Source: a virus | Length of the DNA: 64,000 nucleotides | UHGV virus genome: UHGV-0218015 | Direction: 5' to 3' (one strand) | In this document: positions 25,207 through 55,200 of the stretch, in pieces | Position numbering within the stretch: the stretch's first letter is position 1 | How the letters are laid out: each line of letters opens with the position of its first letter | Translations under genes and position numbers: made by a program | The notes under the pieces: generated by a model | Seen by the model: only the letters and a program-made list of their open reading frames with translations | Told to the model about the DNA's origin: nothing | Database searches by the model: none

Positions 25207-25476
25207 ATGGCTAAGATCTATATTGTTGAAAAACGTGCAGGTAATGTACTTTCTTATTACGAAGAAGGTAAACCTGAGAAAATCAAAACACTCAAACTCG
25301 ACGGTTTCAATGTGAAGAGTTTACGTAAGGGCGTGAAGATTACCTTTAAAGGTCTGGTTCGCGCAGGTAACTTACAGATTGTTAAGGACGATGGTACGAT
25401 GGTTGCATTAGCACCTGTCAGTGCTGCGAAAACGACAGCAGGTCGTGGCTGCTACGGTAGCAGTCGTAAGATTTAA
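25207..25476 (+). CDS. hypothetical protein
   Basis: ATG with GGAG SD, preceded by promoter-like variant; terminator follows. Confidence 0.45.
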   Translation: MAKIYIVEKRAGNVLSYYEEGKPEKIKTLKLDGFNVKSLRKGVKITFKGLVRAGNLQIVKDDGTMVALAPVSAAKTTAGRGCYGSSRKI

Positions 25477-25483
25477 GCAGTGC

Positions 25484-25520
25484 CCCTCTCTCCTAACGGA
25501 GAGAGGGTACTTTTATTTTT
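25484..25520 (+). terminator. rho-independent terminator (same stem as 24437)
   Basis: ccctctctcc-taac-ggagagaggg then T-rich tail. Confidence 0.75.
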
Positions 25521-25534
25521 CTTCGAGGTGTATG

Positions 25535-26023
25535 ATGACAACAGTTTTAGTAACAAACGATTACATTTTAGCTGACCGACTTGTGGATTATGGTGGCACG
25601 GTTAAAGAATTGCCCAAACTGCACAAACACAAAAACAAGTTTGTTTTCTACACGGGAGAACTTGTACTGGACACCGAATTTTGGAAAATATCGATTACCG
25701 CTGCTATAGAAGAATATTTAGACGAGGATAAACGTCAGAAAGTTGAGCCCTTGCTTGCAGATCTTTTCGAAAAAGAGCGAATATTCGATCAAATAGTCAT
25801 TTTTACGGTTAGAGAAACACATTGGCTGACATTAGTGGCAGATAAGTTTAAAACGTTTGTGATAAATAAAAATGCGGTTTGGGCAACGGGTTCTGGTGGA
25901 GGATTTGCGCGGGCTGCTTGGGCAACTGGAATATCAGAAAAGAAAATTATGCCATTGGTAGGTTCTATTGATCCGTCTAGCTCGACCACTTACGACTTGT
26001 TTTACAGGAAGGGTTTACGATGA
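25535..26023 (+). CDS. HslV/proteasome-beta-like Ntn-hydrolase (putative)
   Basis: Start must follow the terminator at 25484-25520; N-terminus M-TTVLV and internal ATGSGGGFARAAWATG resemble HslV TTIV... and GSGG..A.AAA; size ~160 aa. Confidence 0.4.
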   Translation: MTTVLVTNDYILADRLVDYGGTVKELPKLHKHKNKFVFYTGELVLDTEFWKISITAAIEEYLDEDKRQKVEPLLADLFEKERIFDQIVIFTVRETHWLTLVADKFKTFVINKNAVWATGSGGGFARAAWATGISEKKIMPLVGSIDPSSSTTYDLFYRKGLR

Positions 26024-26541
26024 AGATAAATGCGGTTTTAATCGGCGATGAAATATTCGTGAATACAAAAACACAATATTTGTATTACGAAGGTATTACC
26101 GTAATAGACGATTATTACGGTAAGTACGGTTGGTGGATTCCGTCCCCTAACTCTTTACGATTAGAAGATGCATTAACCGCCGAAAAGAACAAATTGGATA
26201 CCGATTGGACTTATATCAGTTCCGTAATTGACGCCAGTGGCCGAATTAAAGATGTCTACTGGACTAAGGAGTCAGGTTGGCGCGTTACGCTACATCATCC
26301 CGCACCGGTAAGACTGCTGTACGACCACTCGGACAGTTCTGAATTAGCGTTTACCATTGAGACGCTCTCGCTACGTAAAGATTTAGATAACGTGGGTAAA
26401 GGGAAGTGGTCGATTGAACGTGTAGAGGAAATTCTTAGTCACTTTAAAGCCAACAACAAATTTAAACGTTGGTGTACATTACCTGAGCTAGTAGAGGAGT
26501 TGAAAAAGCGGGACTGCAAGCCGTTACCTTTTAACCCGTAG
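26020..26541 (+). CDS. hypothetical protein
   Basis: ORF coupled to upstream gene. Confidence 0.45.
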   Translation: MKINAVLIGDEIFVNTKTQYLYYEGITVIDDYYGKYGWWIPSPNSLRLEDALTAEKNKLDTDWTYISSVIDASGRIKDVYWTKESGWRVTLHHPAPVRLLYDHSDSSELAFTIETLSLRKDLDNVGKGKWSIERVEEILSHFKANNKFKRWCTLPELVEELKKRDCKPLPFNP

Positions 26542-28224: not shown

Positions 28225-28755
28225 GTGATAGCGCGACTTGTGAGTTGGTTTAAGCAACGTCGTGCAAAGGCGGTCGAATGGCCGCCTATTACGCATGACG
28301 AGAAAGTGGCTCTTTTTTTGGGATATAACAAAGACTTGGGGAGATTAGGCGAGTTAATGCACTTAACGGAACGCCAGGTTTTTGCTAAGATTTCGAGCAC
28401 CGAGTTGCGTAAAGAAGTAATTCCCCACCTATCCTTTTTAGGGCAGGTTTATGCAAAGACGACAGAGGAATTTTTATCAACCCAAGGTAGCGAACGGCCA
28501 CATATTCGGTTTTCCGTCGTAGGTGAACCTGATACGGTAGGTGAAATCGATTTTAAGATGCTGTATCGCAGAATAAAAGATGATGGGTTTATACATGTTA
28601 AACGATTATCAAAAACTTCTGTGGTGATTTATCATCGCGCTGATCAGGATTTGTTAGGGTGTGTTATAAGGCTAACAAATTTACATAGTTTTTACGTTGA
28701 CTTACTTACAGAGTTTTATCCAGAACCTTGGTGTTTTATAGATGAAAATAAATGA
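28225..28755 (+). CDS. hypothetical protein
   Basis: ORF in operon context. Confidence 0.45.
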   Translation: MIARLVSWFKQRRAKAVEWPPITHDEKVALFLGYNKDLGRLGELMHLTERQVFAKISSTELRKEVIPHLSFLGQVYAKTTEEFLSTQGSERPHIRFSVVGEPDTVGEIDFKMLYRRIKDDGFIHVKRLSKTSVVIYHRADQDLLGCVIRLTNLHSFYVDLLTEFYPEPWCFIDENK

Positions 28756-28954
28756 CGGATATATCATATCAGCAATTGTTTCGACTACACTGATTGTAGC
28801 GATGTTGATGTTCTACGTTAAGACGTCTGACGAATCACGTAGAGACTCCCTTTATCGTGAATGTATGTCAGACACTACTGTAGATAATCCACGTTACGCT
28901 GAATTAGTAATGGCGTGTACGGAATACGCTAATCGAATGGGAGGAGGGAAATGA
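28742..28954 (+). CDS. small membrane-anchored protein (paralog A)
   Basis: N-terminal hydrophobic helix IISAIVSTTLIVAMLMF then a soluble part with two Cys. Confidence 0.4.
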   Translation: MKINDGYIISAIVSTTLIVAMLMFYVKTSDESRRDSLYRECMSDTTVDNPRYAELVMACTEYANRMGGGK

Positions 28955-29148
28955 AAATTTGGTTACCGATTCTAGTATTTATCCTTATCGCAGGGGCACT
29001 CGCAAGTGCTGAGTTAGACAACCGTACTTTAGAAACGAAACGTGAGTTGTATCAGGACTGTATAAAGGATTATACTCCAGGTACAGAGCTTCATGCACAG
29101 GCTGTAAGAAGCTGTGCGTTGATGGCTGAAACGCAGACTCGTTCCTAA
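28951..29148 (+). CDS. small membrane-anchored protein (paralog B)
   Basis: N-terminal signal/TM WLPILVFILIAGALASA; similar size and Cys pattern to the preceding gene. Confidence 0.4.
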   Translation: MKIWLPILVFILIAGALASAELDNRTLETKRELYQDCIKDYTPGTELHAQAVRSCALMAETQTRS

Positions 29149-29522
29149 TGCGTATCTGGACGCTACAACTCGCTAAGTGGCGGTTAGCTAAGCAGAAAGG
29201 ATTTCACGCGGTGGATATCACCGTGAAGTCAGGGCGAAAGGAACTCGCCCCCGACTGGGATTTCCTAATGGCGTATAAAAATTCTGCCCAAGACGCTGCC
29301 GCTGAGCGTGAATACACGATAAAGTATTTGTACAAACTCGAACGACTGTTAGATGCCGATGCCGAAGTTTTAGTGTCGTTACTCAGACACGAAGACCTGG
29401 TTTTGATGTGTTATTGTCCTGCAGGTAAGTTTTGTCATCGTCACCTACTGGCGAACAAACTTCAAGAAGTGGGAATGACGTTCGGTATCGATGTTGAGTT
29501 ATGTGGAGAACTAACGGTCTGA
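29148..29522 (+). CDS. hypothetical protein
   Basis: ORF; terminator follows. Confidence 0.4.
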   Translation: MRIWTLQLAKWRLAKQKGFHAVDITVKSGRKELAPDWDFLMAYKNSAQDAAAEREYTIKYLYKLERLLDADAEVLVSLLRHEDLVLMCYCPAGKFCHRHLLANKLQEVGMTFGIDVELCGELTV

Positions 29523-30376: not shown

Positions 30377-33300
30377 ATGGCTAAAGCGGTAAAGAAAATA
30401 CGTTTACACGACTTACATCCGTACACCGGGGATATCGGTGAAGGCGTTTTACTTTTTTCGAAAGACGAAAAAGATTATAAGTTACCAGTCCGCGAGATCG
30501 TTGCGGACATTGACACCGTCAGAAGTGCGGTTGCTGATGCACAAACGGCTGCGGCCAAATCACAACAGTCCGCAACAGAAGCTACGAAAGCTAAAGATTT
30601 AGCAGAAACAGCGAAGCAACAGACCACCACTTTAGCTTCCACAGTTAATGAGCAAGCGGGAACCGTCGCCACTAAAACTGCGGAGGTTAACAAAAAACAC
30701 GCTGAAGTTTTAGCAGCGAAAACTGCCGTAGATACTGTTTCACAATCAGTAAATGAGAAGGCTCAAGCTGTCGCCGCAAGCGAACAATCTGTGACAGCTG
30801 TAGCGGCTGATGTAACTAAGAAAGCAGAAACGGTTACGCAACGGGCCGGACAGGTTCAACAGACCGCTACCAGTATCGCAAATACTGCGGCTTCAATTGA
30901 GGCCAGTAAGGGCGCGGTGGAGAAGGTTGCTGCGCAGGTTACGAAAGATAAAGAAAGCTCAGAAGGCGCAGCTACACGCTCGGAGTCAGCCGCTCTGCGT
31001 GCGGAGAAAATCGCTGCACAGGGTTTAGTTGACGCTAGTACGACCGGTAAAGGTATCGTTAAACTTAACAATACCCTGACTAGCGAATCCGTGACGGAGG
31101 CTGCCACACCGTCCACGGTTAAACAGCTGAACGACGAATTACAGTTAAAAGCCGATAAACATTCGCCGAATTTTACGGGTAACCCGACATCACCAACGCC
31201 TCCAAAGGACTCGAATGACACGAGCATCTCCACAACGGCCTGGGTGCGTGCTGCTATCGCGGAATTGGTTGGTTCTTCACCTGAGACGTTAGATACCTTA
31301 GCGGAATTAGCTACGGCGTTAGGTAATGACCCTAACTTCGCAACAACGATTACTGAGAAACTTGCACAGAAGCAACCTATCAGTCCACTACTTACTGCTA
31401 TTGCCGCAGTCACAACCGCAGCAAACAAGCTCCCTTATTTCACTGGCACTAATAAAGTCGGGTTAACTGACTTTACAGAAACCGCCAGAACCTTGTTAGC
31501 AAAAGGGACAACTGCGGATATCATCAATTTCTTGGGATTAAAAGCCACTGTAGATAAAGCGAACTCTGCGTTACAGAAAAACTCTAACGGTGCTGATATC
31601 CCCAATAAAGAAACCTTTGCTCGCAATATTGGTCTATCTCCTGATACCTATCTGCGTTTCCGTGGTGAAATGCCCGCAGATGCTGATATTAACACATTTG
31701 CTCCAGATGCCAATTACACAGGAACATGGTCCAAGTCGACATCAACAAACGCATCGATAGCAAAACACTTCCCGGAAGACGGTGCGGTAGGTTATCTAGA
31801 AGTGTATAAAGCGGGCAACTACAGTGGAGCGCAACGTTTTACCTGCCGTAATGGTAACGTGTACAACCGCATGTTGTCAGCCGCGTGGAACGGAACTAAT
31901 GGCCCGTGGTCACCGTGGAGAATGGTAACTACAGGTGTACGCCCGTTATCTACATCGATCGATCTGAACTCCTTAGGCGGCGCTGAGCACATGGGTAACT
32001 GGCGTAACTCGTCCAGTTCGTTAGCGGTGTTCGACAGACATTATCCTGAAGAGGGCGGTAATGCGCAAGGCGTATTAGAAGTCATGGAAGGCGGTCTTTA
32101 TGGACGTTTACAACGTTACACCACTCGTCGTGGTACGATGTATGTCCGTGGTTTGACTGCGACTTGGGATTCGTCTAATCCGCAGTGGGAAGATTGGATT
32201 CAGGTTGGGTATCAGGTAGACGGTGCCTACTATAAGGGTAGCTTTAACGACTTAACTAAACCGGGTCGCTTTAGTGTTACCGGCGAGGCTACAGACGGTC
32301 CGTTAACAGACTCTGCTGGCGCAACCTTGCTAGGCGTTTGCGAAGTTACCTTACGCTTAGACGGTTCAGGTGTTGAACAAAATTATACCACATACGGTAC
32401 AGGCGCAACTTCGAAAGGTCGCAAGTTCCAACGAATTCGTACAGGAAATGCCTGGAGCGAATGGCGAGAGATTTTCACATCCTATTCACTCCCGTTGGCT
32501 TTAGGGATCGGTGGGGTTGCTGCTAAGGTAGATCCGTTAGACTGGCAAACCTTCGACTTCGTTCCTGGCCAGATGATAAGTACACCATTGAATACCATGA
32601 AAAACATTCCTGCGGGAATGGATTGGGGTGTTATCGACGGTAACTTGGTTACTATTCTTGTAGGGGCGTCGGAGGACACCGGTACTGGCCGGAGTATGTT
32701 GGTCTGGCGTGGTACAGTGTCTACTGCTAACTATCGCTTCTTTGCTGTTCGCGTCGCTGGTGAAAAGGGTAAACGTACTATTACTAGCCGCCAGATGCCC
32801 GTATTGAATGCAGCGCATACGTGGGCAGAAAAACAGACCTTTGCAAAAGGGTTATCAGGTGAGTTAACAGGCAATGCTGCTACGGCAACGAAACTGAAAA
32901 CAGCCCGTTTAATCGGCGGTGTAAGTTTCGACGGTAGCGGAGACATTAGCCTCCCTGGTGTAAACCAACAGGGTAATCAAAACACCTCTGGGAACGCGGG
33001 AACCGCAACCAAATTACAAACGGCTCGAAACATCAACGGTGTGAAATTTGATGGGTCTAGAGACATCAATATCAACACGTTGGTAGGACGTGGACGTGTT
33101 ACTGCACTGACTGGATCAAACAAAGGTACACCCGGTATTCAGATGTACGAAGTTTACAATAACGGTTATCCAACCGCTTATGGTAACTTACTGCATTTGG
33201 GCGGTTCTGCTGCGCTAGGCGAAGGGGAACTGTTAATCGGATGGTCGGGGACGAGCGGTGCGCACGCACCCGTTTATATTCGTAGTCGACGTGATACTGC

Positions 33301-34816
33301 TGATGCGCCGTGGTCAGATTGGGCACAAGTTTATACTGCCCGTGATAGCATTCCTGGTGTAAATGCCACAGGTAATCAGGATACTACCGGCAACGCCGCT
33401 ACCGCGACGAAACTGAAAACCGCTCGCAGGATCGGAGGCGTTAGCTTTGACGGTACAGGTGATATCAATTTACCGGGCGTTAACCAGCAAGGCAACCAGA
33501 ATACGACAGGTAATGCAGCGACCGCTACTAAGTTACAAACCGCACGTAAGATCGGCGGTGTGGTGTTCGATGGGACAAAAGACGTTAATCTTCCTGGTGT
33601 AAACCAAACCGGTAACCAATCGACTACGGGGAATGCGGCGACAGCGACTAAGCTACAGACTGCTCGAAATATAGGTGGCGTAGCTTTTGATGGTACTAAA
33701 GACATCAGTTTACCTGGAGTAAACCAAACAGGGAATCAGTCGACCACCGGAAACGCAGCCACGGCAACAAAGTTGCAAACCGCAAGAACCATCAATGGTA
33801 TTGCGTTTGATGGCACTAGAAATATATCGTTAGGGCCAGCCGAAATAGGTTGTCCGGCATCACCTAGTGGTTGGTTAGAAACTGGCGCTAATGGCGGTGC
33901 AATAACTACAGCACAGCTAGTGACGTTATTGAAAAATAACGGCGCATTTACCACAAGATCGTGGGTTGCTCGCTGTGCGTGGGCTTATGCCGCCAGTGCG
34001 TCCATACCTCACAGCGAGACGGGTTGTGGTGTCATTCCGTTAGCTGGGGCCGTTATAGAAGTCATTAGTAACGGCAACAGCACAAACAACTACACGATCC
34101 GTATAACGACCGCCACAACGACGAGCGTCGGCGGAGCACTCACTAATGCGGAGTTTATCTACGTATTTAACGGCGATGGATACTCACCAGGCTGGCGTCG
34201 TGCTTACAATACGAGAAACAAGCCAACTGCTGCGGAAGTGGGCGCGTTACCGTCAGGGGGCGGTACTGTAGGCGGTGATTTAACCGTTAATGGTAAATTG
34301 GCCACTAAATACCCTGATTTTCGAATCGCTTACGGTACCTACGGTTTTATTTTACGTAACGACGGTGCCAATACCTATTTCTTAGTAACCGACGCCGGAC
34401 AAGCCGCAGCGGGTTCCTGGAACGGATTACGCCCGTTGTCTTTTAATAATTCTAACGGCCAAGTAAACTTTGGACATAACGTTACTGGCAACGGTAACGG
34501 TTCGTTTAACGACGTACAGATTCGTTCTGACCGTCGTAACAAACGTAATCTGGTGAAGCTGGATAAAGCTTTGGATCGGTTAGAGTTACTAACCGGTTAT
34601 TTGTACGAAATTCAGCATCCTGATGACGGTTGGCAGACTTCTGTAGGTCTAATTGCTCAGGACGCATTAGAAGCGTTACCTGAACTTGTGTCAGAGGACG
34701 ACGATGCCATTTCAGGCGAAAAACGTTTACGTCTAAATTACAATGGCGTTATTGCGCTGTTAGTAGAGGGTATGAAGTCTCTTCGCCGAGAGCTTAAAGA
34801 ACTCAAGGGGAATTAA
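30377..34816 (+). CDS. tail fibre protein with C-terminal S74-type intramolecular chaperone
   Basis: 1479 aa; Ala-rich N-terminal region, TLDTLAELATALGNDPNF tail-fibre motif, six ~40-aa repeats (GNAATATKLQTAR..GGV.FDG), C-terminal SDRRNKRNLVKLDKALDRL...YNGVIALLVEGMKSL matching the autoproteolytic chaperone. Confidence 0.8.
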   Translation: MAKAVKKIRLHDLHPYTGDIGEGVLLFSKDEKDYKLPVREIVADIDTVRSAVADAQTAAAKSQQSATEATKAKDLAETAKQQTTTLASTVNEQAGTVATKTAEVNKKHAEVLAAKTAVDTVSQSVNEKAQAVAASEQSVTAVAADVTKKAETVTQRAGQVQQTATSIANTAASIEASKGAVEKVAAQVTKDKESSEGAATRSESAALRAEKIAAQGLVDASTTGKGIVKLNNTLTSESVTEAATPSTVKQLNDELQLKADKHSPNFTGNPTSPTPPKDSNDTSISTTAWVRAAIAELVGSSPETLDTLAELATALGNDPNFATTITEKLAQKQPISPLLTAIAAVTTAANKLPYFTGTNKVGLTDFTETARTLLAKGTTADIINFLGLKATVDKANSALQKNSNGADIPNKETFARNIGLSPDTYLRFRGEMPADADINTFAPDANYTGTWSKSTSTNASIAKHFPEDGAVGYLEVYKAGNYSGAQRFTCRNGNVYNRMLSAAWNGTNGPWSPWRMVTTGVRPLSTSIDLNSLGGAEHMGNWRNSSSSLAVFDRHYPEEGGNAQGVLEVMEGGLYGRLQRYTTRRGTMYVRGLTATWDSSNPQWEDWIQVGYQVDGAYYKGSFNDLTKPGRFSVTGEATDGPLTDSAGATLLGVCEVTLRLDGSGVEQNYTTYGTGATSKGRKFQRIRTGNAWSEWREIFTSYSLPLALGIGGVAAKVDPLDWQTFDFVPGQMISTPLNTMKNIPAGMDWGVIDGNLVTILVGASEDTGTGRSMLVWRGTVSTANYRFFAVRVAGEKGKRTITSRQMPVLNAAHTWAEKQTFAKGLSGELTGNAATATKLKTARLIGGVSFDGSGDISLPGVNQQGNQNTSGNAGTATKLQTARNINGVKFDGSRDININTLVGRGRVTALTGSNKGTPGIQMYEVYNNGYPTAYGNLLHLGGSAALGEGELLIGWSGTSGAHAPVYIRSRRDTADAPWSDWAQVYTARDSIPGVNATGNQDTTGNAATATKLKTARRIGGVSFDGTGDINLPGVNQQGNQNTTGNAATATKLQTARKIGGVVFDGTKDVNLPGVNQTGNQSTTGNAATATKLQTARNIGGVAFDGTKDISLPGVNQTGNQSTTGNAATATKLQTARTINGIAFDGTRNISLGPAEIGCPASPSGWLETGANGGAITTAQLVTLLKNNGAFTTRSWVARCAWAYAASASIPHSETGCGVIPLAGAVIEVISNGNSTNNYTIRITTATTTSVGGALTNAEFIYVFNGDGYSPGWRRAYNTRNKPTAAEVGALPSGGGTVGGDLTVNGKLATKYPDFRIAYGTYGFILRNDGANTYFLVTDAGQAAAGSWNGLRPLSFNNSNGQVNFGHNVTGNGNGSFNDVQIRSDRRNKRNLVKLDKALDRLELLTGYLYEIQHPDDGWQTSVGLIAQDALEALPELVSEDDDAISGEKRLRLNYNGVIALLVEGMKSLRRELKELKGN
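32833..33072 (+). repeat. in-frame 120-bp coding repeats, copies 1-2 (tail fibre)
   Basis: Units begin cctggtgtaaacc; encode GNAATATKL.TAR..GGV.FDG. Confidence 0.6.
33353..33832 (+). repeat. four tandem 120-bp coding repeats (tail fibre)
   Basis: Unit starts at 33353, 33473, 33593, 33713; protein-level conservation with synonymous divergence. Confidence 0.7.
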
Positions 34817-34821
34817 AGATA

Positions 34822-34848
34822 GGGGGAGTAATCCCCCTAATTTAGTTT
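34822..34848 (+). terminator. terminator candidate after tail fibre gene
   Basis: aggggg-agtaat-ccccct then aatttagttt. Confidence 0.4.
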
Positions 34849-34857
34849 GGAGGATTT

Positions 34858-35403
34858 ATGGGGGTAGCATCCGGCTGGGTTGGAAGCTCAGCAAAGGCAG
34901 TAACCGGTCAGGAGTGGATGAGTGTGGCAGGTAATAAGCTTAAACTGAGCACGCCATTTAACATGTCGCAGATGGTCGGGCGTAGCGTAGAGGATCTTAA
35001 ACTCGTTGTAGGCCGATCAACCTATGTTGTTTTGGTGCAGGCTACGAACACGCAGTGGGTTCCTATTACAAATACGTATGGGGGGTATTCGAACAACTCT
35101 ACAACAACGGGTGCTGGTTCTACAGTATCGAATCGTGTGCAAACACAAAATGCGGCCGGTTCGGTGTCAGGTTCGATCTTGGGTTGTAGCGTCACACATC
35201 TTAGCCAAGTACAAAATACTGGTATTATCTACATGGCCCTAACCAATGGACCAAATCAGAATATTACGCTTTCGTTTAACGGAACGAAGATTACTTTTCT
35301 ACCGTACTCCTACAGTAACGGCGTCCGGCGCTATGAGGCTAAGACGGCAACCAACTGGTTATTTAATCAGAACGGTGCAACAATTTCAATAAGTGTAGTC
35401 TAA
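34858..35403 (+). CDS. tail-fibre-associated protein (paralog of 35657..36163)
   Basis: N-terminus MGVASGWVGSSAKAVTGQEWMS matches the paralog; sits immediately after the fibre gene. Confidence 0.45.
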   Translation: MGVASGWVGSSAKAVTGQEWMSVAGNKLKLSTPFNMSQMVGRSVEDLKLVVGRSTYVVLVQATNTQWVPITNTYGGYSNNSTTTGAGSTVSNRVQTQNAAGSVSGSILGCSVTHLSQVQNTGIIYMALTNGPNQNITLSFNGTKITFLPYSYSNGVRRYEAKTATNWLFNQNGATISISVV

Positions 35404-36777: not shown

Positions 36778-38898
36778 ATGAGTCAGCCAATTGGAAAGAA
36801 ACGTATCCATGAACTCGACAATTTCTCTGGCGATCTCAAAGGTGCGTTAGTTCTTCTTTCTAAGGAAGAAAAAGAATATAAAATTGATATTGCAAAACTT
36901 CAGGGCACGACGGAGCCGGAGTATTACTTCGTGATTCCTATAGCCGGGCAATCTAATGCGATGAGTTATGGTGAAGGGTTGCCTCTACCGGCGACGTTGG
37001 ACGCTCCCGATCCGCGAATTAAACAGATGGCGCGCCGTGCGAAGGTAACGCCTAATGGGGCTGATTGTAAATATAACGACGTCATTCCAGCGGATCACTG
37101 TCTGCACGACGTGCAAGATATGTCCAAATACTCGCATCCCAATGCCAATTTGAGCAAAGGTGAATACGGATGTGTGGGTCAAGGTCTACATATCGCGAAG
37201 CGTCTTCTCCCGTATATTCCTAAGAACGCCGGTATCTTACTAGTACCCTGCGCACGCGGCGGTTCTGCTTTCACGGGTGGTGCAGAAGGTACCTTCGATG
37301 AAGCCACAGGAGCCACTGAGTCGTCAATGCTATGGGGGGTGGAGAAACCGCTTTATAAAGATTTAGTTAGCCGGACCAAAAAAGCTCTAGAAGTTAATCC
37401 TAAAAATAAACTCTTGGCTGTAGTGTGGATGCAGGGAGAGTATGATCTGACTAAAGTACAATACGCACAACAACCAGCGTTATTTAACGCAATGGTAGAG
37501 CGTTTCCGAACTGATCTCTCTGACCATCTCTCTCAGATGCCCGAGTACGACACCGCCGAAGTACCATGGATCTGCGGGGACACTACCTATTATTGGAAGG
37601 AAAAATATCCTGCCCAATATGAAACCGTATACGGTAATTATCGTAACAATGAACAAAAAAATATCTTTTTTGTTCCATTCATGTACGACGATAATGGCCA
37701 ACGTGTACCGACTAATGATCCCACTGACGATCCTGATATCACTGGTGCGGCCTATTACGGTGCTGCCTCCCGTACTGTTAAAAACTGGACGTCTGAAACA
37801 AGGAATAGCCATTTCAGTTCTTGGGCACGACGCGGTATTATCTCAGAGAGAATAGCTGCCGAGATATTATCAAGAACAGCGATTGGTGCAATGTTCCTGA
37901 CGAAGAACGACACTAAGAGCTCCAAAGACAATAAGAATGTGGTAAGAAGCTATACCCCATTAGTAGAGTCTGTGGGTTATAACGGACGTCGTGGGGATGG
38001 TTCCCTGAAAGGGCAAGGTTGGAACAATATCGTTGATTGTAACGTAACCGTGCAAGATTCTGAGGATGGAAACGGGCATTTCGTCGAATTAAGAAAGGCT
38101 GTAAAGATGAAACCTTGGAATGTAACTAAGTCAATGACATCTGCTGCGGACATGATACGTTACGGTGGACGTCTGACCGTTACTTTTAGACTAAAAGGTG
38201 ATTTAGCAGCAGATCGTTTCGGATTAGGACTTTATTGGCGTATTTCCGCGTCCGACCTACCTTCTGGTACTACATTTGCTGACGCTGGTGTGGCTGAGAC
38301 GAACCCGTACCTAATGTCTTTTTTCTTACAGACCGACGCTACGAATCTTAATCTGATGCATCATAAAAAGCAAAATGCGAAATTAGGAACTTTTGGTGCG
38401 TACGATAATAACTGGCATACGCTTGAAATCATTTATCCTGGTGCCAATAAAACCACAGTCACACCTGTGCTGGACGGTACGAATGGTACTCCATTTGATC
38501 TGGCGAACAGTCCAGCTAAGACCGATTTGAACGAATTGGTTCTGACGGATATTACGAAAGTTACTGCCTATGATATCGATATTTCTAAGTTTGAGATCTC
38601 GGTCAATCGTGATTCTGGTAGCATAGTGTTATCTGAGGAAGATGTGTCGTCTTATGTGTATTTCCCACCCACCAACCGTGGCGGCCAACTTACTATTCCT
38701 GATCTAGAATATAGTGTGGGCAGAAATATTCAGATCGTGGCAAATAAGGCTGGTAAGATCACCGTTAAACCGGAAAATTCAAACGTTCTCATCACTCCAA
38801 AGAGTGGGACAGAAGGTCTTGCCAAACCCATTGATACCAATGAAAGTATTACGCTAATGCAGATTGGTTCCGATGGTAAAAGCTGGGTAGTTATTTAA
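36778..38898 (+). CDS. tailspike/RBP with SGNH (SASA-type) esterase domain
   Basis: N-terminal ~35 aa shared with the fibre at 30377; then IPIAGQSNAMSYGEG resembling the GQSN block of sialate O-acetylesterase/SGNH hydrolases. Confidence 0.55.
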   Translation: MSQPIGKKRIHELDNFSGDLKGALVLLSKEEKEYKIDIAKLQGTTEPEYYFVIPIAGQSNAMSYGEGLPLPATLDAPDPRIKQMARRAKVTPNGADCKYNDVIPADHCLHDVQDMSKYSHPNANLSKGEYGCVGQGLHIAKRLLPYIPKNAGILLVPCARGGSAFTGGAEGTFDEATGATESSMLWGVEKPLYKDLVSRTKKALEVNPKNKLLAVVWMQGEYDLTKVQYAQQPALFNAMVERFRTDLSDHLSQMPEYDTAEVPWICGDTTYYWKEKYPAQYETVYGNYRNNEQKNIFFVPFMYDDNGQRVPTNDPTDDPDITGAAYYGAASRTVKNWTSETRNSHFSSWARRGIISERIAAEILSRTAIGAMFLTKNDTKSSKDNKNVVRSYTPLVESVGYNGRRGDGSLKGQGWNNIVDCNVTVQDSEDGNGHFVELRKAVKMKPWNVTKSMTSAADMIRYGGRLTVTFRLKGDLAADRFGLGLYWRISASDLPSGTTFADAGVAETNPYLMSFFLQTDATNLNLMHHKKQNAKLGTFGAYDNNWHTLEIIYPGANKTTVTPVLDGTNGTPFDLANSPAKTDLNELVLTDITKVTAYDIDISKFEISVNRDSGSIVLSEEDVSSYVYFPPTNRGGQLTIPDLEYSVGRNIQIVANKAGKITVKPENSNVLITPKSGTEGLAKPIDTNESITLMQIGSDGKSWVVI

Positions 38899-52445: not shown

Positions 52446-52993
52446 TCATCTTCTCCTTTAACTAAACCTAGCTCAATTAACAATTCAAAATCGATTTGGC
52501 GAAATTTGTTATCAAAACCAGAATCCCAATCGATGTGTAATCCTTGTCGTTCTTCATCGGTAAGTTCAGGATAAATTAAATCATGGAACGCTTCACGTTC
52601 CTCGTAAAATCCATCGATAGTAGAATCTGGATTCCGCATTGCGTAAATCGTGATGCCCGGAAAGGATAATCCTAATGCTGTTATAGATTCGACGCTTGGT
52701 TCTTGCAAGGCCCTGCGTAATAGCACGATTTTATGTCGTGGAAAATCTAGTACACGTTGTTCAAACCCAGGATTCCGTTTCTCAATTTCTGTAACTGAAA
52801 GATCGGTGAGTTCTGTGCAATACATTGGGATAACTACAGTTACTCCGTGGCGAATTAATAATCGTTTAACATCGTCAGTGAAGTCTTCACCATTAATTTG
52901 CACATAACAACCAAACAATTTTGTAGTTTCTAAAAATTTTTCCAGAAAACGGAATTTACGCTTCGTAATATTGTGGATCAGAATTGGCTTCAT
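52421..52993 (-). CDS. hypothetical protein
   Basis: ORF overlapping both neighbours. Confidence 0.45.
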   Translation of the reverse strand: MKPILIHNITKRKFRFLEKFLETTKLFGCYVQINGEDFTDDVKRLLIRHGVTVVIPMYCTELTDLSVTEIEKRNPGFEQRVLDFPRHKIVLLRRALQEPSVESITALGLSFPGITIYAMRNPDSTIDGFYEEREAFHDLIYPELTDEERQGLHIDWDSGFDNKFRQIDFELLIELGLVKGEDECLLLTKA

Positions 52994-54278
52994 CTTTGGT
53001 TTCTCTCAATTGTTTTTCTTTCTGGGTACGTTCACGTACGCAACGAGGGCAATAACACATGCTATTGTCATGAAAATCTTTCACTGACGTCGTGCCCATT
53101 TTCTGTTTCCAATATTCCGCAACCATCAACTTTGCAGTTGTCCAGCCGCATTGACGGCGTTCAGCGTGATAAGCTTTGCGATCTTCTAGCGTCCCTTCTC
53201 CATTCTCGTAAGATGCAGCCGCACAACTACCACAAGCGTGCTTCATTGGACAACCTAAACAGGTTTCAGGATAGTTGGTGTATTGCGTCTGAATCTCTTC
53301 CAGCAATTTCCCGTCATCTAAGCTAACGAATTCCCGGCCAACTAATTCAAATACGGCAGAACGTGATGTTACGGTTGACATGAAACGGTTACAACCGAAG
53401 ATCTTACGATCAAATCCTAAGCAGGTCATGTGTGTTAACGTACCGCAGAACGGGCGTAAACGTTCTGGATTCAAACGTACAGTATCGTTATACAATAACT
53501 GATCACGCCAGTTTGGTTCCCAGATAGTATCAAAATCTAACCCGTCTGGAATGATGTGCGACAAAGTGTTACGTGGGTTGGTGTGTAAGCCCTTCTCAAC
53601 CCAATAATCAACCACGTCCATCATCTGCAATGCGATTGAAGTAGCCATGCTCCGTGGCATAATGTCTTCGAAGGTTACGTTGCCAGAAATAGTTCCGCCG
53701 CCAGTAATATCAATTAATGATTTCATTCCAGCAGCATAGAACGGTAACGTTTCCAACGTAAAGGTCGCTTTTACACCAAGTTCTGCAATACCGACTTCTT
53801 TTAAGTAGTTATAGCCCCGCACAGCGGCCTCGTAAGATCCTTCACGAGTTGTTGTAAAAATCCGGTACTTATCGTGCGATTCGGGCAATCCATCAATAGA
53901 CACGCCGATAGAAAGCCTGTCTTTCCAACGTTCAATAATTTCTCTATTCAAAGGTCTATCTAACAACGTTCCGTTAGTAGAGATGCTAAACATAAACGGC
54001 CGATTATGTTTTTCGCATAACTCTTCTGCGGTTTCAAATGCCGCCTTTAATAGTTTAGGCTGCATAAACGGCTCACCACCGATGATATCGATAACGACCT
54101 CGATGTTTGTCAGATCTTTATCTCGTTCAAAACAAGCGTGTAGAAAATCAACAATATCCGCCGCTTTGTTATTACGGGGATACTTACGTTCGTAACAATA
54201 CTCACAGTCCAAGTTACACGATAAATTTGTAACAATTTGATAAGTCAGTTGTTTTGGATAACTATTTTCTTGACTCAT
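52956..54278 (-). CDS. radical SAM enzyme with SPASM-type C-terminal domain (anSME-like peptide maturase candidate)
   Basis: N-terminal CNLDCEYCYE (CxxxCxxC), GGEP; C-terminal Cys clusters CLGCPMKHACGSC and CYCPRC typical of SPASM/twitch domains. Confidence 0.75.
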   Translation of the reverse strand: MSQENSYPKQLTYQIVTNLSCNLDCEYCYERKYPRNNKAADIVDFLHACFERDKDLTNIEVVIDIIGGEPFMQPKLLKAAFETAEELCEKHNRPFMFSISTNGTLLDRPLNREIIERWKDRLSIGVSIDGLPESHDKYRIFTTTREGSYEAAVRGYNYLKEVGIAELGVKATFTLETLPFYAAGMKSLIDITGGGTISGNVTFEDIMPRSMATSIALQMMDVVDYWVEKGLHTNPRNTLSHIIPDGLDFDTIWEPNWRDQLLYNDTVRLNPERLRPFCGTLTHMTCLGFDRKIFGCNRFMSTVTSRSAVFELVGREFVSLDDGKLLEEIQTQYTNYPETCLGCPMKHACGSCAAASYENGEGTLEDRKAYHAERRQCGWTTAKLMVAEYWKQKMGTTSVKDFHDNSMCYCPRCVRERTQKEKQLRETKDEANSDPQYYEA

Positions 54279-55200
54279 TTTCCGCCCCTCTATTACGCTC
54301 TGCCATCACTACACGACGAATGTACTCGTAAGCTTCTACACCTATTGAGGAGGCTAGTTGGTTACACCCTGCTTTTGTAGTTATTGGTACATTTTTAAGT
54401 TGGTTTTCTTCCCCGTCCGCGTCTATCCTGAGACTTTCGCTACAGACATTACAAGCATGATCGAAGAATCTGTTTACAATAAAACCGCAGTCTCTAGAAT
54501 TTAGAACGTTTAATCTTTCTATATTCTCCTGAATTCTAAAATACCCGTAAATAAAGTTCATAACGTGATCGGGAGATAACGGTTTTGGCATGTTTTTATC
54601 TAGTAATAAGGACATGGAACGAAAACCGTAATGATAGATAGCAGTATGTAATTGAATGATATCTTCATGCCATCTTTTGTTGGATAAATTCTCCCTCGTA
54701 ACAACAGCCCAAGTGTTAACATTATTCAAGCTGTAAATTACTTCTAACGCTTCATGACAATTATCATCAATAAAGCGCTTAAAAGGCCGTTCGGAAAGAT
54801 TAAACCCATCGATGCTAACATATATAGCATCGAATTGTTTTAACAACGGTAGATGCGATTTACGCATTTTTAAACCGTTCGTGAACATCTGGTGTTTGAG
54901 TTCAGGACGGATCGTTTTTAATTCGTCGACAAACGCCTCAATCTTTCGAGTTGCCAGTAGCGGTTCACCGCCAGTCCACTGAATTTCAGTAATGGTTGGG
55001 TTAGACGCCAACGCTTTCAAAATTCGTTCACGTTGAAACTCTCGCGGAGAATCTTCACGATGCATGTAATAGGCTCCGCCGCAGAAGCTACAGTCCAGAT
55101 TACATTTGGATGTAGCAACTACGGACAATACGGTGGGTTTATTGTATAAACGATTCGATAACCTTGGCTCTACGTCGGTTGTCATTGCAGGTGAGTCCAT
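54262..55200 (-). CDS. radical SAM enzyme (paralog B)
   Basis: TSKCNLDCSFCGG and GGEPLL; paralog of 57235..58149 with identical DNA blocks. Confidence 0.7.
   Translation of the reverse strand: MDSPAMTTDVEPRLSNRLYNKPTVLSVVATSKCNLDCSFCGGAYYMHREDSPREFQRERILKALASNPTITEIQWTGGEPLLATRKIEAFVDELKTIRPELKHQMFTNGLKMRKSHLPLLKQFDAIYVSIDGFNLSERPFKRFIDDNCHEALEVIYSLNNVNTWAVVTRENLSNKRWHEDIIQLHTAIYHYGFRSMSLLLDKNMPKPLSPDHVMNFIYGYFRIQENIERLNVLNSRDCGFIVNRFFDHACNVCSESLRIDADGEENQLKNVPITTKAGCNQLASSIGVEAYEYIRRVVMAERNRGAENESRK
54514..54597. repeat. 84-bp block identical to 57478..57561
   Basis: Identical string inside radical SAM paralogs B and A; two more shared blocks of ~38 and ~54 bp near 54838/57813 and 55081/58025. 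Confidence 0.7.

What the first reader, a model, noticed from the sequence alone, without database searches (positions are those of the whole stretch)
25535..26023. HslV/proteasome-like Ntn-hydrolase
The ORF, once started after the upstream terminator, begins M-TTVLV and contains ATGSGGGFARAAWATG, both reminiscent of HslV (N-terminal catalytic Thr, GSGG..A.AA loop). A phage-encoded proteasome-type protease could act in prohead maturation or in host takeover by co-opting HslU.
Basis: partly seen in the sequence, partly recalled or inferred. Interest (0 to 1): 0.4.

Follow-up and report, generated by a model that had tools for sequence, protein, structure and literature searches.

The report
Jumbo-phage HslV-like threonine protease
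This jumbo-phage gene does encode a small, very divergent relative of the bacterial HslV/proteasome protease with every catalytic residue intact; such phage proteins are already annotated but untested, and the new points are that it is always paired with a second, probably proteasome-shaped gene and that this phage lineage has no HslU-type motor.

Summary
An ORF at 25535-26023 (+), 162 aa, starts M-TTVLV, carries GSGGGFARAAW and follows a terminator hairpin.

The protein is too divergent for Pfam or NCBIfam. It belongs to the phage proteasome-homologue radiation described by Fuchs et al. 2021. Homologues in Erwinia, Cronobacter and Salmonella jumbo phages are already named "peptidase HslV family".

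Three further points:
- A 173-aa downstream gene (26020-26541) overlaps the stop codon (ATGA). It co-occurs with the HslV-like gene in 19 of 19 phage records and eight other loci.
- Neither the window nor the closest complete genome (222 kb) encodes an HslU- or ClpX-like ATPase. Related Erwinia phages carry one 2-3 kb downstream.

A prohead-maturation role is unlikely. Co-option of host HslU is untested.

The parts
25484..25517 (+). Intrinsic-terminator-like hairpin (CCCTCTCTCC-TAAC-GGAGAGAGGG) plus T-rich tail, ending the upstream 89-aa gene (25207-25476)
   Evidence: One search reports 10 pairs, 7 of them G-C, and a 4-nt loop. A T-rich tract directly upstream of the cassette is also seen in most relatives.
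25525..25529 (+). Shine-Dalgarno GAGGT, 5 nt upstream of ATG 25535
   Evidence: Sequence. All ten relatives have an SD sequence 5-9 nt before ATG-ACN-ACN.
25535..26023 (+). HslV-like / proteasome-like Ntn threonine peptidase gene, 162 aa
25538..25540 (+). Codon of Thr2, which becomes Thr1 (the predicted nucleophile) once the initiator Met is removed
   Evidence: Invariant in 22 of 22 clade members and at least 90% conserved in 114 relatives. It aligns with Thr1 of Salmonella HslV.
25574..25576 (+). Codon of Asp14, equivalent to proteasome/HslV Asp17
   Evidence: Invariant in 114 of 114 sequences. It aligns with HslV D17.
25616..25618 (+). Codon of Lys28, equivalent to Lys33
   Evidence: At least 90% conserved in 114 sequences. 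It aligns with HslV K33.
25655..25657 (+). Codon of Gly41, the probable equivalent of the oxyanion-hole Gly47
   Evidence: At least 90% conserved in 114 sequences. The equivalence to Gly47 is inferred from its position after strand S4.
25889..25897 (+). Gly119-Ser120-Gly121 loop, equivalent to the HslV/proteasome GSG with Ser129
   Evidence: G119 and G121 are invariant in 114 of 114 sequences, and position 120 is Ser or Thr in nearly all of them. The loop aligns with HslV G124-S125-G126.
25970..25981 (+). Asp146-Pro-Ser-Ser149, a D-x-x-S motif and probable equivalent of proteasome Asp166/Ser169
   Evidence: D146 is invariant in the clade and at least 90% conserved in 114 sequences. The D-x-x-S/T pattern is visible in A3. 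The equivalence to Asp166/Ser169 is inferred.
26020..26541 (+). Conserved partner gene (173 aa, phrog_25529). Its ATG overlaps the HslV-like stop codon (ATGA). It is probably a catalytically dead proteasome-like fold.

Best explanation
The ORF encodes an active N-terminal-threonine (Ntn) peptidase of the proteasome/HslV superfamily (MEROPS family T1). It belongs to the compact 'group I' branch that has radiated in phages.

Proposed mechanism:
- Translation starts at ATG 25535.
- Host methionine aminopeptidase removes Met1, because Thr at position 2 is permissive. E. coli and Salmonella HslV mature the same way. There is no propeptide.
- The freed Thr1 hydroxyl and alpha-amine attack peptide bonds. 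They are assisted by Asp14 and Lys28 (equivalent to Asp17 and Lys33), with Gly41 as the oxyanion hole. Ser120 and Asp146 (equivalent to Ser129 and Asp166) hold the site together.

The gene is the first of a translationally coupled two-gene cassette. The second product (26020-26541) is a strictly co-inherited protein that probably has a degenerate, non-catalytic proteasome-like fold. I infer that the two act together, most likely as subunits of one oligomer.

This phage lineage encodes no HslU/ClpX-type unfoldase. The peptidase therefore works either without an ATPase, as proposed for BPH and the uncapped 20S proteasome, or with a host one.

The gene lies in a non-structural block next to GNAT and Dam methylase genes. 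This points to remodelling of host or phage proteins during infection rather than head maturation.

Shown: homology, fold, conservation of catalytic residues, purifying selection, the cassette, and the absence of HslU. Inferred: Met removal, enzymatic activity, oligomerisation with the partner, and the biological role.
For: Homology and fold:
- PHROG_1040 'peptidase HslV family', E 1.1e-8 over residues 1-159.
- The clade profile's best PDB hit is HslV 4hnz, E 0.0016.
- The profile of 114 relatives hits HslV chains at E 1.5e-16 to 3e-11, 20S beta subunits at about 1e-8 and BPH at 6e-8.
- 34 of 114 relatives hit PF00227.
- hhalign against Salmonella HslV gives E 1.1e-4 in the register T1-T1, D14-D17, K28-K33, GSG-GSG.

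Catalytic residues and selection:
- M1, T2, T3, D14, R15, K28, G119, G121 and D146 are invariant in the clade.
- D14, G119 and G121 are invariant across 114 sequences; T2, K28, G41 and D146 are at least 90% conserved.
- dN/dS is 0.118.

Cassette: and for the partner's fold.

No HslU/ClpX-like gene was found in the window or in the complete 222,441-bp relative NZ_CP134650.1.

Relatives are annotated 'peptidase HslV family'. Phage proteasome homologues are described in PMC8665760.
Against: - The window protein itself has no Pfam or NCBIfam hit.
- Pairwise BLAST against host HslV is not significant (E 0.078), and the hhalign probability is only 56%.
- The model is of moderate quality, with TM about 0.46 to HslV and residues 16-27 below pLDDT 50.
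- No member of this clade has been tested biochemically, as far as the searched literature shows.
- Oligomeric state and enzymatic activity cannot be tested here.
Confidence: 0.75

Rival explanations
1. It is a substitute HslV that docks onto the host's HslU hexamer. This would redirect the host ATP-dependent unfoldase to phage-chosen substrates, or poison HslUV.
For: The lineage has the peptidase but no unfoldase of its own, either in the window or in the whole genome of the closest relative. Sister lineages carry an HslU-like gene 2-3 kb downstream, so the loss might be compensated by the host. Enterobacterial hosts encode HslU. HslV is the closest solved structure.
Against: Similarity to host HslV is very low: about 23% identity in the hhalign alignment and BLAST E 0.078. 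The segment that would carry HslU-contacting residues (16-27) is poorly modelled and not conserved. The phage HslU-like proteins of relatives lack the HslU C-terminal tail that activates HslV, so canonical docking is not an evident ancestral property of this clade. HslU-like genes also occur in phages without the cassette, for example RAY and Wellington. The conserved partner gene suggests a self-contained system.
Confidence: 0.15
2. It is the prohead (capsid) maturation protease of the phage.
For: Phages need a morphogenetic protease. In pEa_SNUABM_43, genes annotated 'prohead core protein protease' lie about 4.4 kb downstream of the homologue.
Against: The gene lies among small non-structural genes: GNAT, Dam methylase and PHROGs of unknown function. 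The closest complete genome has a dedicated S80 family morphogenetic serine protease about 112 kb away. The SNUABM_43 prohead-protease genes have no counterpart next to the cassette in the window. No known prohead protease is an Ntn threonine peptidase (general knowledge).
Confidence: 0.03
3. It is an Ntn enzyme that is not a protease. It could be a peptide ligase or transpeptidase like connectase, or an amidase acting on a small molecule or a modified protein.
Against: HslV is the best hit by every method. The full proteasome-type set (Thr1, Asp17, Lys33, Gly47, Ser129, Asp166) is retained. This set is characteristic of the peptidase members.
Confidence: 0.07

Closest known systems
HslV (ClpQ), the peptidase of the bacterial HslUV protease (MEROPS T1B)
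   Different: Identity is only about 20-23%, below the Pfam and NCBIfam thresholds. There is no adjacent hslU, and none anywhere in the closest complete genome. It is followed instead by a conserved 173-aa partner. The first beta-hairpin is shorter. The HslU-docking features are not recognisable.
PPH, AAH and CPH: phage-borne proteasome homologues of 'group I' (Fuchs, Alva, Lupas 2021, PMC8665760)
   Same: All are small proteasome homologues without a propeptide, carried by tailed phages and prophages. They keep the Thr1/Asp17/Lys33/Gly47 site and lack the C-terminal S12/H5 elements. Many of the 144 relatives found here are 140-150 aa and begin MTTIA..., which fits the published description of PPH.
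   Different: PPH is described as about 140 aa and lacking helix H2. The window protein is 162 aa and its model has both H1 (48-62) and H2 (64-79). That paper reported no informative genomic context and no co-occurring AAA+ protein. This clade has a fixed partner gene and, in sister phages, an HslU-like gene nearby. Reference sequences of PPH and AAH could not be fetched, so cluster membership was not tested.
'Peptidase HslV family' proteins of Erwinia, Cronobacter and Salmonella jumbo phages (Derbicusvirus and Machinavirus; PHROG_1040)
   Same: They are direct homologues (24-30% identity, full length, E 1e-8 to 5e-5) in a syntenic block with the same partner gene downstream. The pSal-SNUABM-04 paper already calls its ORF116 an HslV protease.
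   Different: Those phages have an HslU-like AAA+ gene 2-3 kb downstream. The window's lineage has lost it. None of these proteins has been studied experimentally.
20S proteasome alpha/beta architecture, and BPH (an unfoldase-less bacterial proteasome homologue)
   Same: An active Thr1 subunit is encoded next to a probably homologous-fold but catalytically dead subunit, as with beta and alpha. Like BPH, it has no dedicated ATPase (Fuchs et al.). BPH and 20S beta subunits rank just below HslV in all searches.
   Different: The partner shows no sequence similarity to alpha subunits or to the HslV-like protein. Complex formation is not demonstrated. Ring symmetry is unknown.

Membership tests
Proteasome/HslV superfamily (MEROPS T1; Pfam PF00227 clan) | Ntn-hydrolase alpha-beta-beta-alpha sandwich fold | tested here: met
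   [not shown]
Proteasome/HslV superfamily (MEROPS T1; Pfam PF00227 clan) | Nucleophilic Thr (or Ser) as the first residue of the mature chain | tested here: met
   M-T-T is invariant in 22 of 22 clade members. Of 138 distant relatives, 101 start MTT and a further 17 start MT followed by another residue; 13 others start MS. Comparison of start sites supports ATG 25535. Actual Met removal was not tested.
Proteasome/HslV superfamily (MEROPS T1; Pfam PF00227 clan) | Asp17 and Lys33 triad partners, Gly47 oxyanion hole, Ser129 (GSG) and Asp166 | tested here: met
   D14, G119 and G121 are invariant in 114 sequences. K28, G41 and D146 are at least 90% conserved. The register with HslV is confirmed for T1, D17, K33 and GSG. 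The equivalences for G41 and D146 are inferred by position.
Proteasome/HslV superfamily (MEROPS T1; Pfam PF00227 clan) | Significant match to the family's sequence model (PF00227 gathering score) | tested here: not met
   The window protein has no Pfam hit even at E<=10. 34 of 114 relatives match PF00227 (best E 2.5e-7). The link is therefore transitive or profile-based.
Proteasome/HslV superfamily (MEROPS T1; Pfam PF00227 clan) | Self-compartmentalising ring oligomer (stacked hexameric or heptameric rings) | not testable with these tools
   Only single-chain prediction is available.
Bona fide HslV (partner of HslU) | Match to curated HslV models | tested here: not met
   NCBIfam gives only an irrelevant 13.9-bit hit. 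BLASTP against Salmonella HslV gives E 0.078.
Bona fide HslV (partner of HslU) | Genetic linkage to hslU (hslVU operon) | tested here: not met
   No HslU/ClpX-like ORF was found in the window or in the complete genome of the closest relative (tblastn at E<=1 and phmmer --max). Sister phages have an HslU-like gene 2-3 kb downstream, but it lacks the HslU C-terminal tail.
Bona fide HslV (partner of HslU) | Inter-subunit pocket that binds the HslU C-terminal tail | not testable with these tools
   This needs a model of the oligomer. The relevant segment (residues 16-27) has pLDDT below 50.
[quoted passage not shown] 2021) | About 140 residues with helix H2 absent | tested here: not met
   The protein is 162 aa, and the model has two consecutive helices at 48-62 and 64-79. 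The definition is from PMC8665760.
[quoted passage not shown] 2021) | Clusters with the PPH reference sequences (e.g. WP_042125023.1) | not tested
   Reference sequences could not be retrieved by accession with these tools.

The most novel reading that the evidence does not exclude
The HslV-like gene and its translationally coupled neighbour may encode a two-subunit phage 'mini-proteasome'. One subunit would be an active Thr1 (beta-like) peptidase. The other would be a catalytically dead, proteasome-fold (alpha-like) subunit that has diverged beyond sequence recognition. This would be a virus-encoded hetero-oligomeric proteasome homologue able to work without a dedicated AAA+ unfoldase. It would supply the genomic-context clue that the 2021 census of proteasome homologues said was missing.
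Probability: 0.35. Interest if true: 0.65.

Novelty: new member of a known kind. Interest (0 to 1): 0.42.

Why it matters
Proteasome-type proteases are central to protein turnover, and phage-encoded versions have been catalogued but never given a function. This clade offers concrete handles for experiments:
- an intact catalytic site under purifying selection;
- a fixed partner gene;
- natural 'with HslU-like' and 'without HslU-like' phage lineages to compare.

If the partner proves to be a dead proteasome-fold subunit, this would be a viral parallel to the alpha/beta division of labour in the 20S proteasome. It would also be a compact system for studying unfoldase-independent proteasome function.

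If the partner is not such a subunit, the finding is a correct but routine annotation of a divergent 'peptidase HslV family' phage gene.

Tried and rejected
- Pfam and NCBIfam scans of the protein gave no usable hit.
- phmmer of the single sequence against PDB gave only noise.
- Megablast of the region against the phage collection gave no match. The closest genome was instead found among 'plasmids'.
- The first word-indexed homologue search returned only close relatives of at least 63% identity. Erwinia-phage sequences had to be added to reach further.
- The window has no tRNA genes.
- No sigma-70-like promoter lies on the + strand near the gene.
- HslU, ClpX and phage HslU-like proteins were searched against the window and the whole relative genome by tblastn and phmmer. 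Nothing was found below E 0.1.
- The 176-aa ORF at 28225-28755, which sits where relatives have the HslU-like gene, had no Pfam or PHROG hit. No tblastn hit of the HslU-like proteins fell on it.
- Sequence-profile comparisons of the partner against the HslV-like family and against PDB gave nothing significant.
- Literature searches for functional work on phage HslV-like proteins found only annotations.
- The prohead-protease reading was rejected on gene context and on the presence of an S80 protease elsewhere in the closest relative's genome.
- A pseudo-enzyme reading was rejected because all catalytic positions are conserved and dN/dS is 0.12.

Full report
**1. What is in the sequence**

The window is part of a jumbo phage genome. 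It carries tail-fibre, virion-structural, Dam methylase, GNAT, endolysin and many PHROG-only genes.

The closest complete record is a 222,441-bp circular 'plasmid' of Enterobacter ludwigii, NZ_CP134650.1. It is 83% identical in DNA over 90% of a 12-kb query and is full of phage genes. Close protein homologues (63-92% identity) sit on contigs of about 222-227 kb, several of them from Salmonella enterica assemblies.

At 25535-26023 (+) there is an ORF of 162 aa. It begins MTTVLVT and contains ATGSGGGFARAAWATG at residues 117-132. It follows a strong terminator-like hairpin at 25484-25507 with a T-rich tail.

Two in-frame ATGs lie side by side, at 25532 and 25535. The Shine-Dalgarno GAGGT is 5 nt from the second. 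In ten relatives the only start is SD followed by ATG-ACN-ACN, and the extra ATG is window-specific. This matters, because a protein starting MMTT would not expose Thr.

**2. Identity**

Single-sequence searches against curated libraries fail. Pfam and NCBIfam give nothing usable, and phmmer against PDB gives noise.

- PHROGs gives phrog_1040 'peptidase HslV family' at E 1.1e-8 over residues 1-159.
- tblastn finds full-length homologues at 24-30% identity in Erwinia, Cronobacter and Salmonella jumbo phages of the genera Derbicusvirus and Machinavirus. RefSeq names some of them 'peptidase HslV family'.
- A 9-sequence clade profile has HslV of Trypanosoma brucei (4hnz) as its best PDB hit at E 0.0016, with a 20S beta subunit second.
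- An exhaustive profile search of 1.84 billion cluster representatives found 144 relatives at E<=1e-3, nearly all aligned from residue 1. Of 138 examined, 101 start MTT.
- A profile of 114 of these hits HslV structures at E 1.5e-16 to 3e-11, 20S beta subunits at about 1e-8 and BPH at 6e-8. 34 of the 114 match PF00227 individually.
- hhalign of the clade against Salmonella HslV gives E 1.1e-4 (probability 56%). The register is T1-T1, D14-D17, K28-K33 and GSG-GSG. The HslV sequence was taken from locus L009, and its true GTG start gives (M)TTIV.

**3. Catalytic residues and selection**

- In 22 clade members, M1, T2, T3, D14, R15, K28, T91, G119, G121, A125, G132, D146, Y157, R158 and L161 are invariant.
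- Across 114 very diverse relatives, D14, G119 and G121 are invariant. M1, T2, K28, G41 and D146 are at least 90% conserved.
- This is the canonical proteasome set: Thr1, Asp17, Lys33, Gly47, Ser129 (in GSG) and Asp166. A D-x-x-S motif at 146-149 matches Asp166/Ser169.
- dN/dS against the Enterobacter relative is 0.118, although dS is 1.6 and therefore saturated.

The protein is thus very probably an active enzyme and not a relic.

**4. Surroundings: a conserved two-gene cassette**

The next gene (26020-26541, 173 aa, phrog_25529, no Pfam hit) starts with an ATG that overlaps the TGA of the HslV-like gene.

- A homologous gene of 170-182 aa follows the HslV-like gene with the same ATGA overlap in pEa_SNUABM_43 and in metagenomic loci L010-L014. 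In L015 the overlap is a single base (TAATG), and in EarlPhillipIV the partner starts 2 nt after the stop.
- Partner profiles score these downstream proteins at 81, 30, 26 and 15 bits (best of the three profiles), whereas the HslV-like controls score below 0.
- The two partner subtypes are homologous (hhalign probability 95.6%, E 1.3e-8).
- In the 50,697-record phage collection, the 19 records (13 phages) that hold the HslV-like gene are exactly the 19 that hold the partner, always adjacent.
- The partner is under purifying selection (dN/dS 0.077).
- Its AF2 model is good (pLDDT 83.2, pTM 0.81).
- The partner has no conserved N-terminal Thr, Ser or Cys and no Asp/Lys/GSG set. Only G37 and P41 are invariant.
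- Sequence-profile comparison shows no significant similarity to the HslV-like family or to any PDB chain.

I therefore treat 'dead proteasome-fold subunit' as probable but unproven.

**5. The missing unfoldase**

In the Derbicusvirus and Machinavirus phages examined, and in L011, an HslU-like AAA+ gene lies 2-3 kb downstream of the cassette. This includes pSal-SNUABM-04, whose paper stated that no HslU was present (against H33).

These proteins align with Salmonella HslU in both AAA+ modules. They have a different, larger insertion in place of the I-domain. They end about 12-15 residues short, lacking the EDLSRFIL tail that docks HslU onto HslV.

In the window the flanking genes are syntenic, but the HslU-like gene is absent. 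Neither the window nor the whole 222-kb relative contains any HslU/ClpX-like ORF.

Conversely, HslU-like genes occur in jumbo phages where the cassette was not detected, such as RAY, Wellington and SPAsTU. RAY's HslU-like gp116 localises to the phage nucleus.

The peptidase and the HslU-like ATPase are therefore separable. The cassette, not the ATPase, is the constant unit.

**6. Mechanism and role**

Most likely:
- Met1 is removed, as for host HslV.
- Thr1 acts as nucleophile with Asp14 and Lys28.
- The enzyme assembles, probably with its partner, into an oligomer.
- It degrades peptides or unfolded proteins, either without an ATPase or with a host one.

The gene block is non-structural (GNAT, Dam methylase, unknown PHROGs). 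The relative's genome also has a dedicated S80 morphogenetic serine protease elsewhere. A prohead-maturation role is therefore unlikely. Host-HslU co-option remains possible but has no positive evidence.

**7. Comparison with what is known, and novelty**

Fuchs, Alva and Lupas (2021, PMC8665760) described phage-borne proteasome homologues (PPH, AAH, CPH) within a 'group I' that includes HslV and BPH. They stated that they found no informative genomic context and no co-occurring AAA+ partner.

The window protein belongs to this radiation. It does not fit the PPH description, which is about 140 aa without helix H2.

Homologues in isolated phages are already annotated as HslV-family peptidases. 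The finding as stated is therefore a new member of a known kind.

Two observations appear not to have been described: the obligatory, translationally coupled partner with a probable proteasome-like fold, and the natural presence or absence of an HslU-like gene among sister lineages. These make the clade a tractable entry point for working out what viral proteasome homologues do.

Noticed in passing
[not shown]
   Followed up: yes
L001 8596-10650; L002 8965-10701; L011 10534-12291: The phage HslU-like AAA+ proteins of sister jumbo phages keep both HslU ATPase modules. They replace the I-domain with a larger unrelated insertion and lack the C-terminal tail (EDLSRFIL in Salmonella HslU) that normally docks into HslV.
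   Followed up: partly
MT710307.1 (Salmonella phage pSal-SNUABM-04) 106153-107874: The published description says this phage has HslV genes but no HslU. tblastn finds an HslU-like homologue there (50% identity to Erwinia phage gp129 over the AAA+ parts), annotated 'putative DnaA protein | hypothetical protein'.
   Followed up: partly
NZ_CP134650.1 (loci L003-L008): A 222,441-bp circular 'plasmid' of Enterobacter ludwigii from a gull cloaca is evidently a complete jumbo-phage genome closely related to the window (83% DNA identity). Similar contigs of about 224 kb occur in several Salmonella enterica assemblies. This suggests carriage of this phage in bacterial isolates (pseudolysogeny or a carrier state).
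   Followed up: partly
window 25535-26020 versus 26020-26538, compared with L003: The HslV-like gene is only 72% identical in DNA to the Enterobacter relative, while the gene immediately downstream is 90% identical. In the protein alignment some homologues (P0015, P0016) look like N- and C-terminal mosaics of the two subclades. This suggests recombination or faster evolution within the peptidase gene.
   Followed up: no
window 28225-29147: At the position where sister phages carry the HslU-like gene and one or two further genes, the window has only a 176-aa ORF (28225-28755) with no Pfam or PHROG match, followed by a gap of about 390 bp. This is the apparent site of loss or replacement.
   Followed up: partly
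window 52956-55200 (-): Two adjacent radical SAM / 4Fe-4S genes (440 and 312 aa) lie in the phage genome, next to DUF4376 and unknown genes. Their function is unknown.
   Followed up: no
window 30377-35403 and 36778-38898 (+): There is a T4-like tail-fibre set in a jumbo phage: a 1479-aa fibre with Gp34 trimerisation and S74 chaperone domains, followed by a Gp38-type adhesin. Further on is a 706-aa SASA-esterase/DUF6645 protein. The Enterobacter relative has an extra 3-kb 'phage tail protein' gene inserted upstream of the fibre.
   Followed up: no
window 29148-29522 (+); also L011 14203-14586, L012 1855-2241, L001 11662-12045: A DUF488-N3a gene is conserved near the cassette in several of these phages.
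   Followed up: no
distant relatives P0092, P0104, P0108, P0111, P0113 and others: A subgroup of the wider family starts MSL/MSV/MSM instead of MTT. These would have Ser1 rather than Thr1 as the putative nucleophile, and they carry GTG in place of GSG.
   Followed up: no
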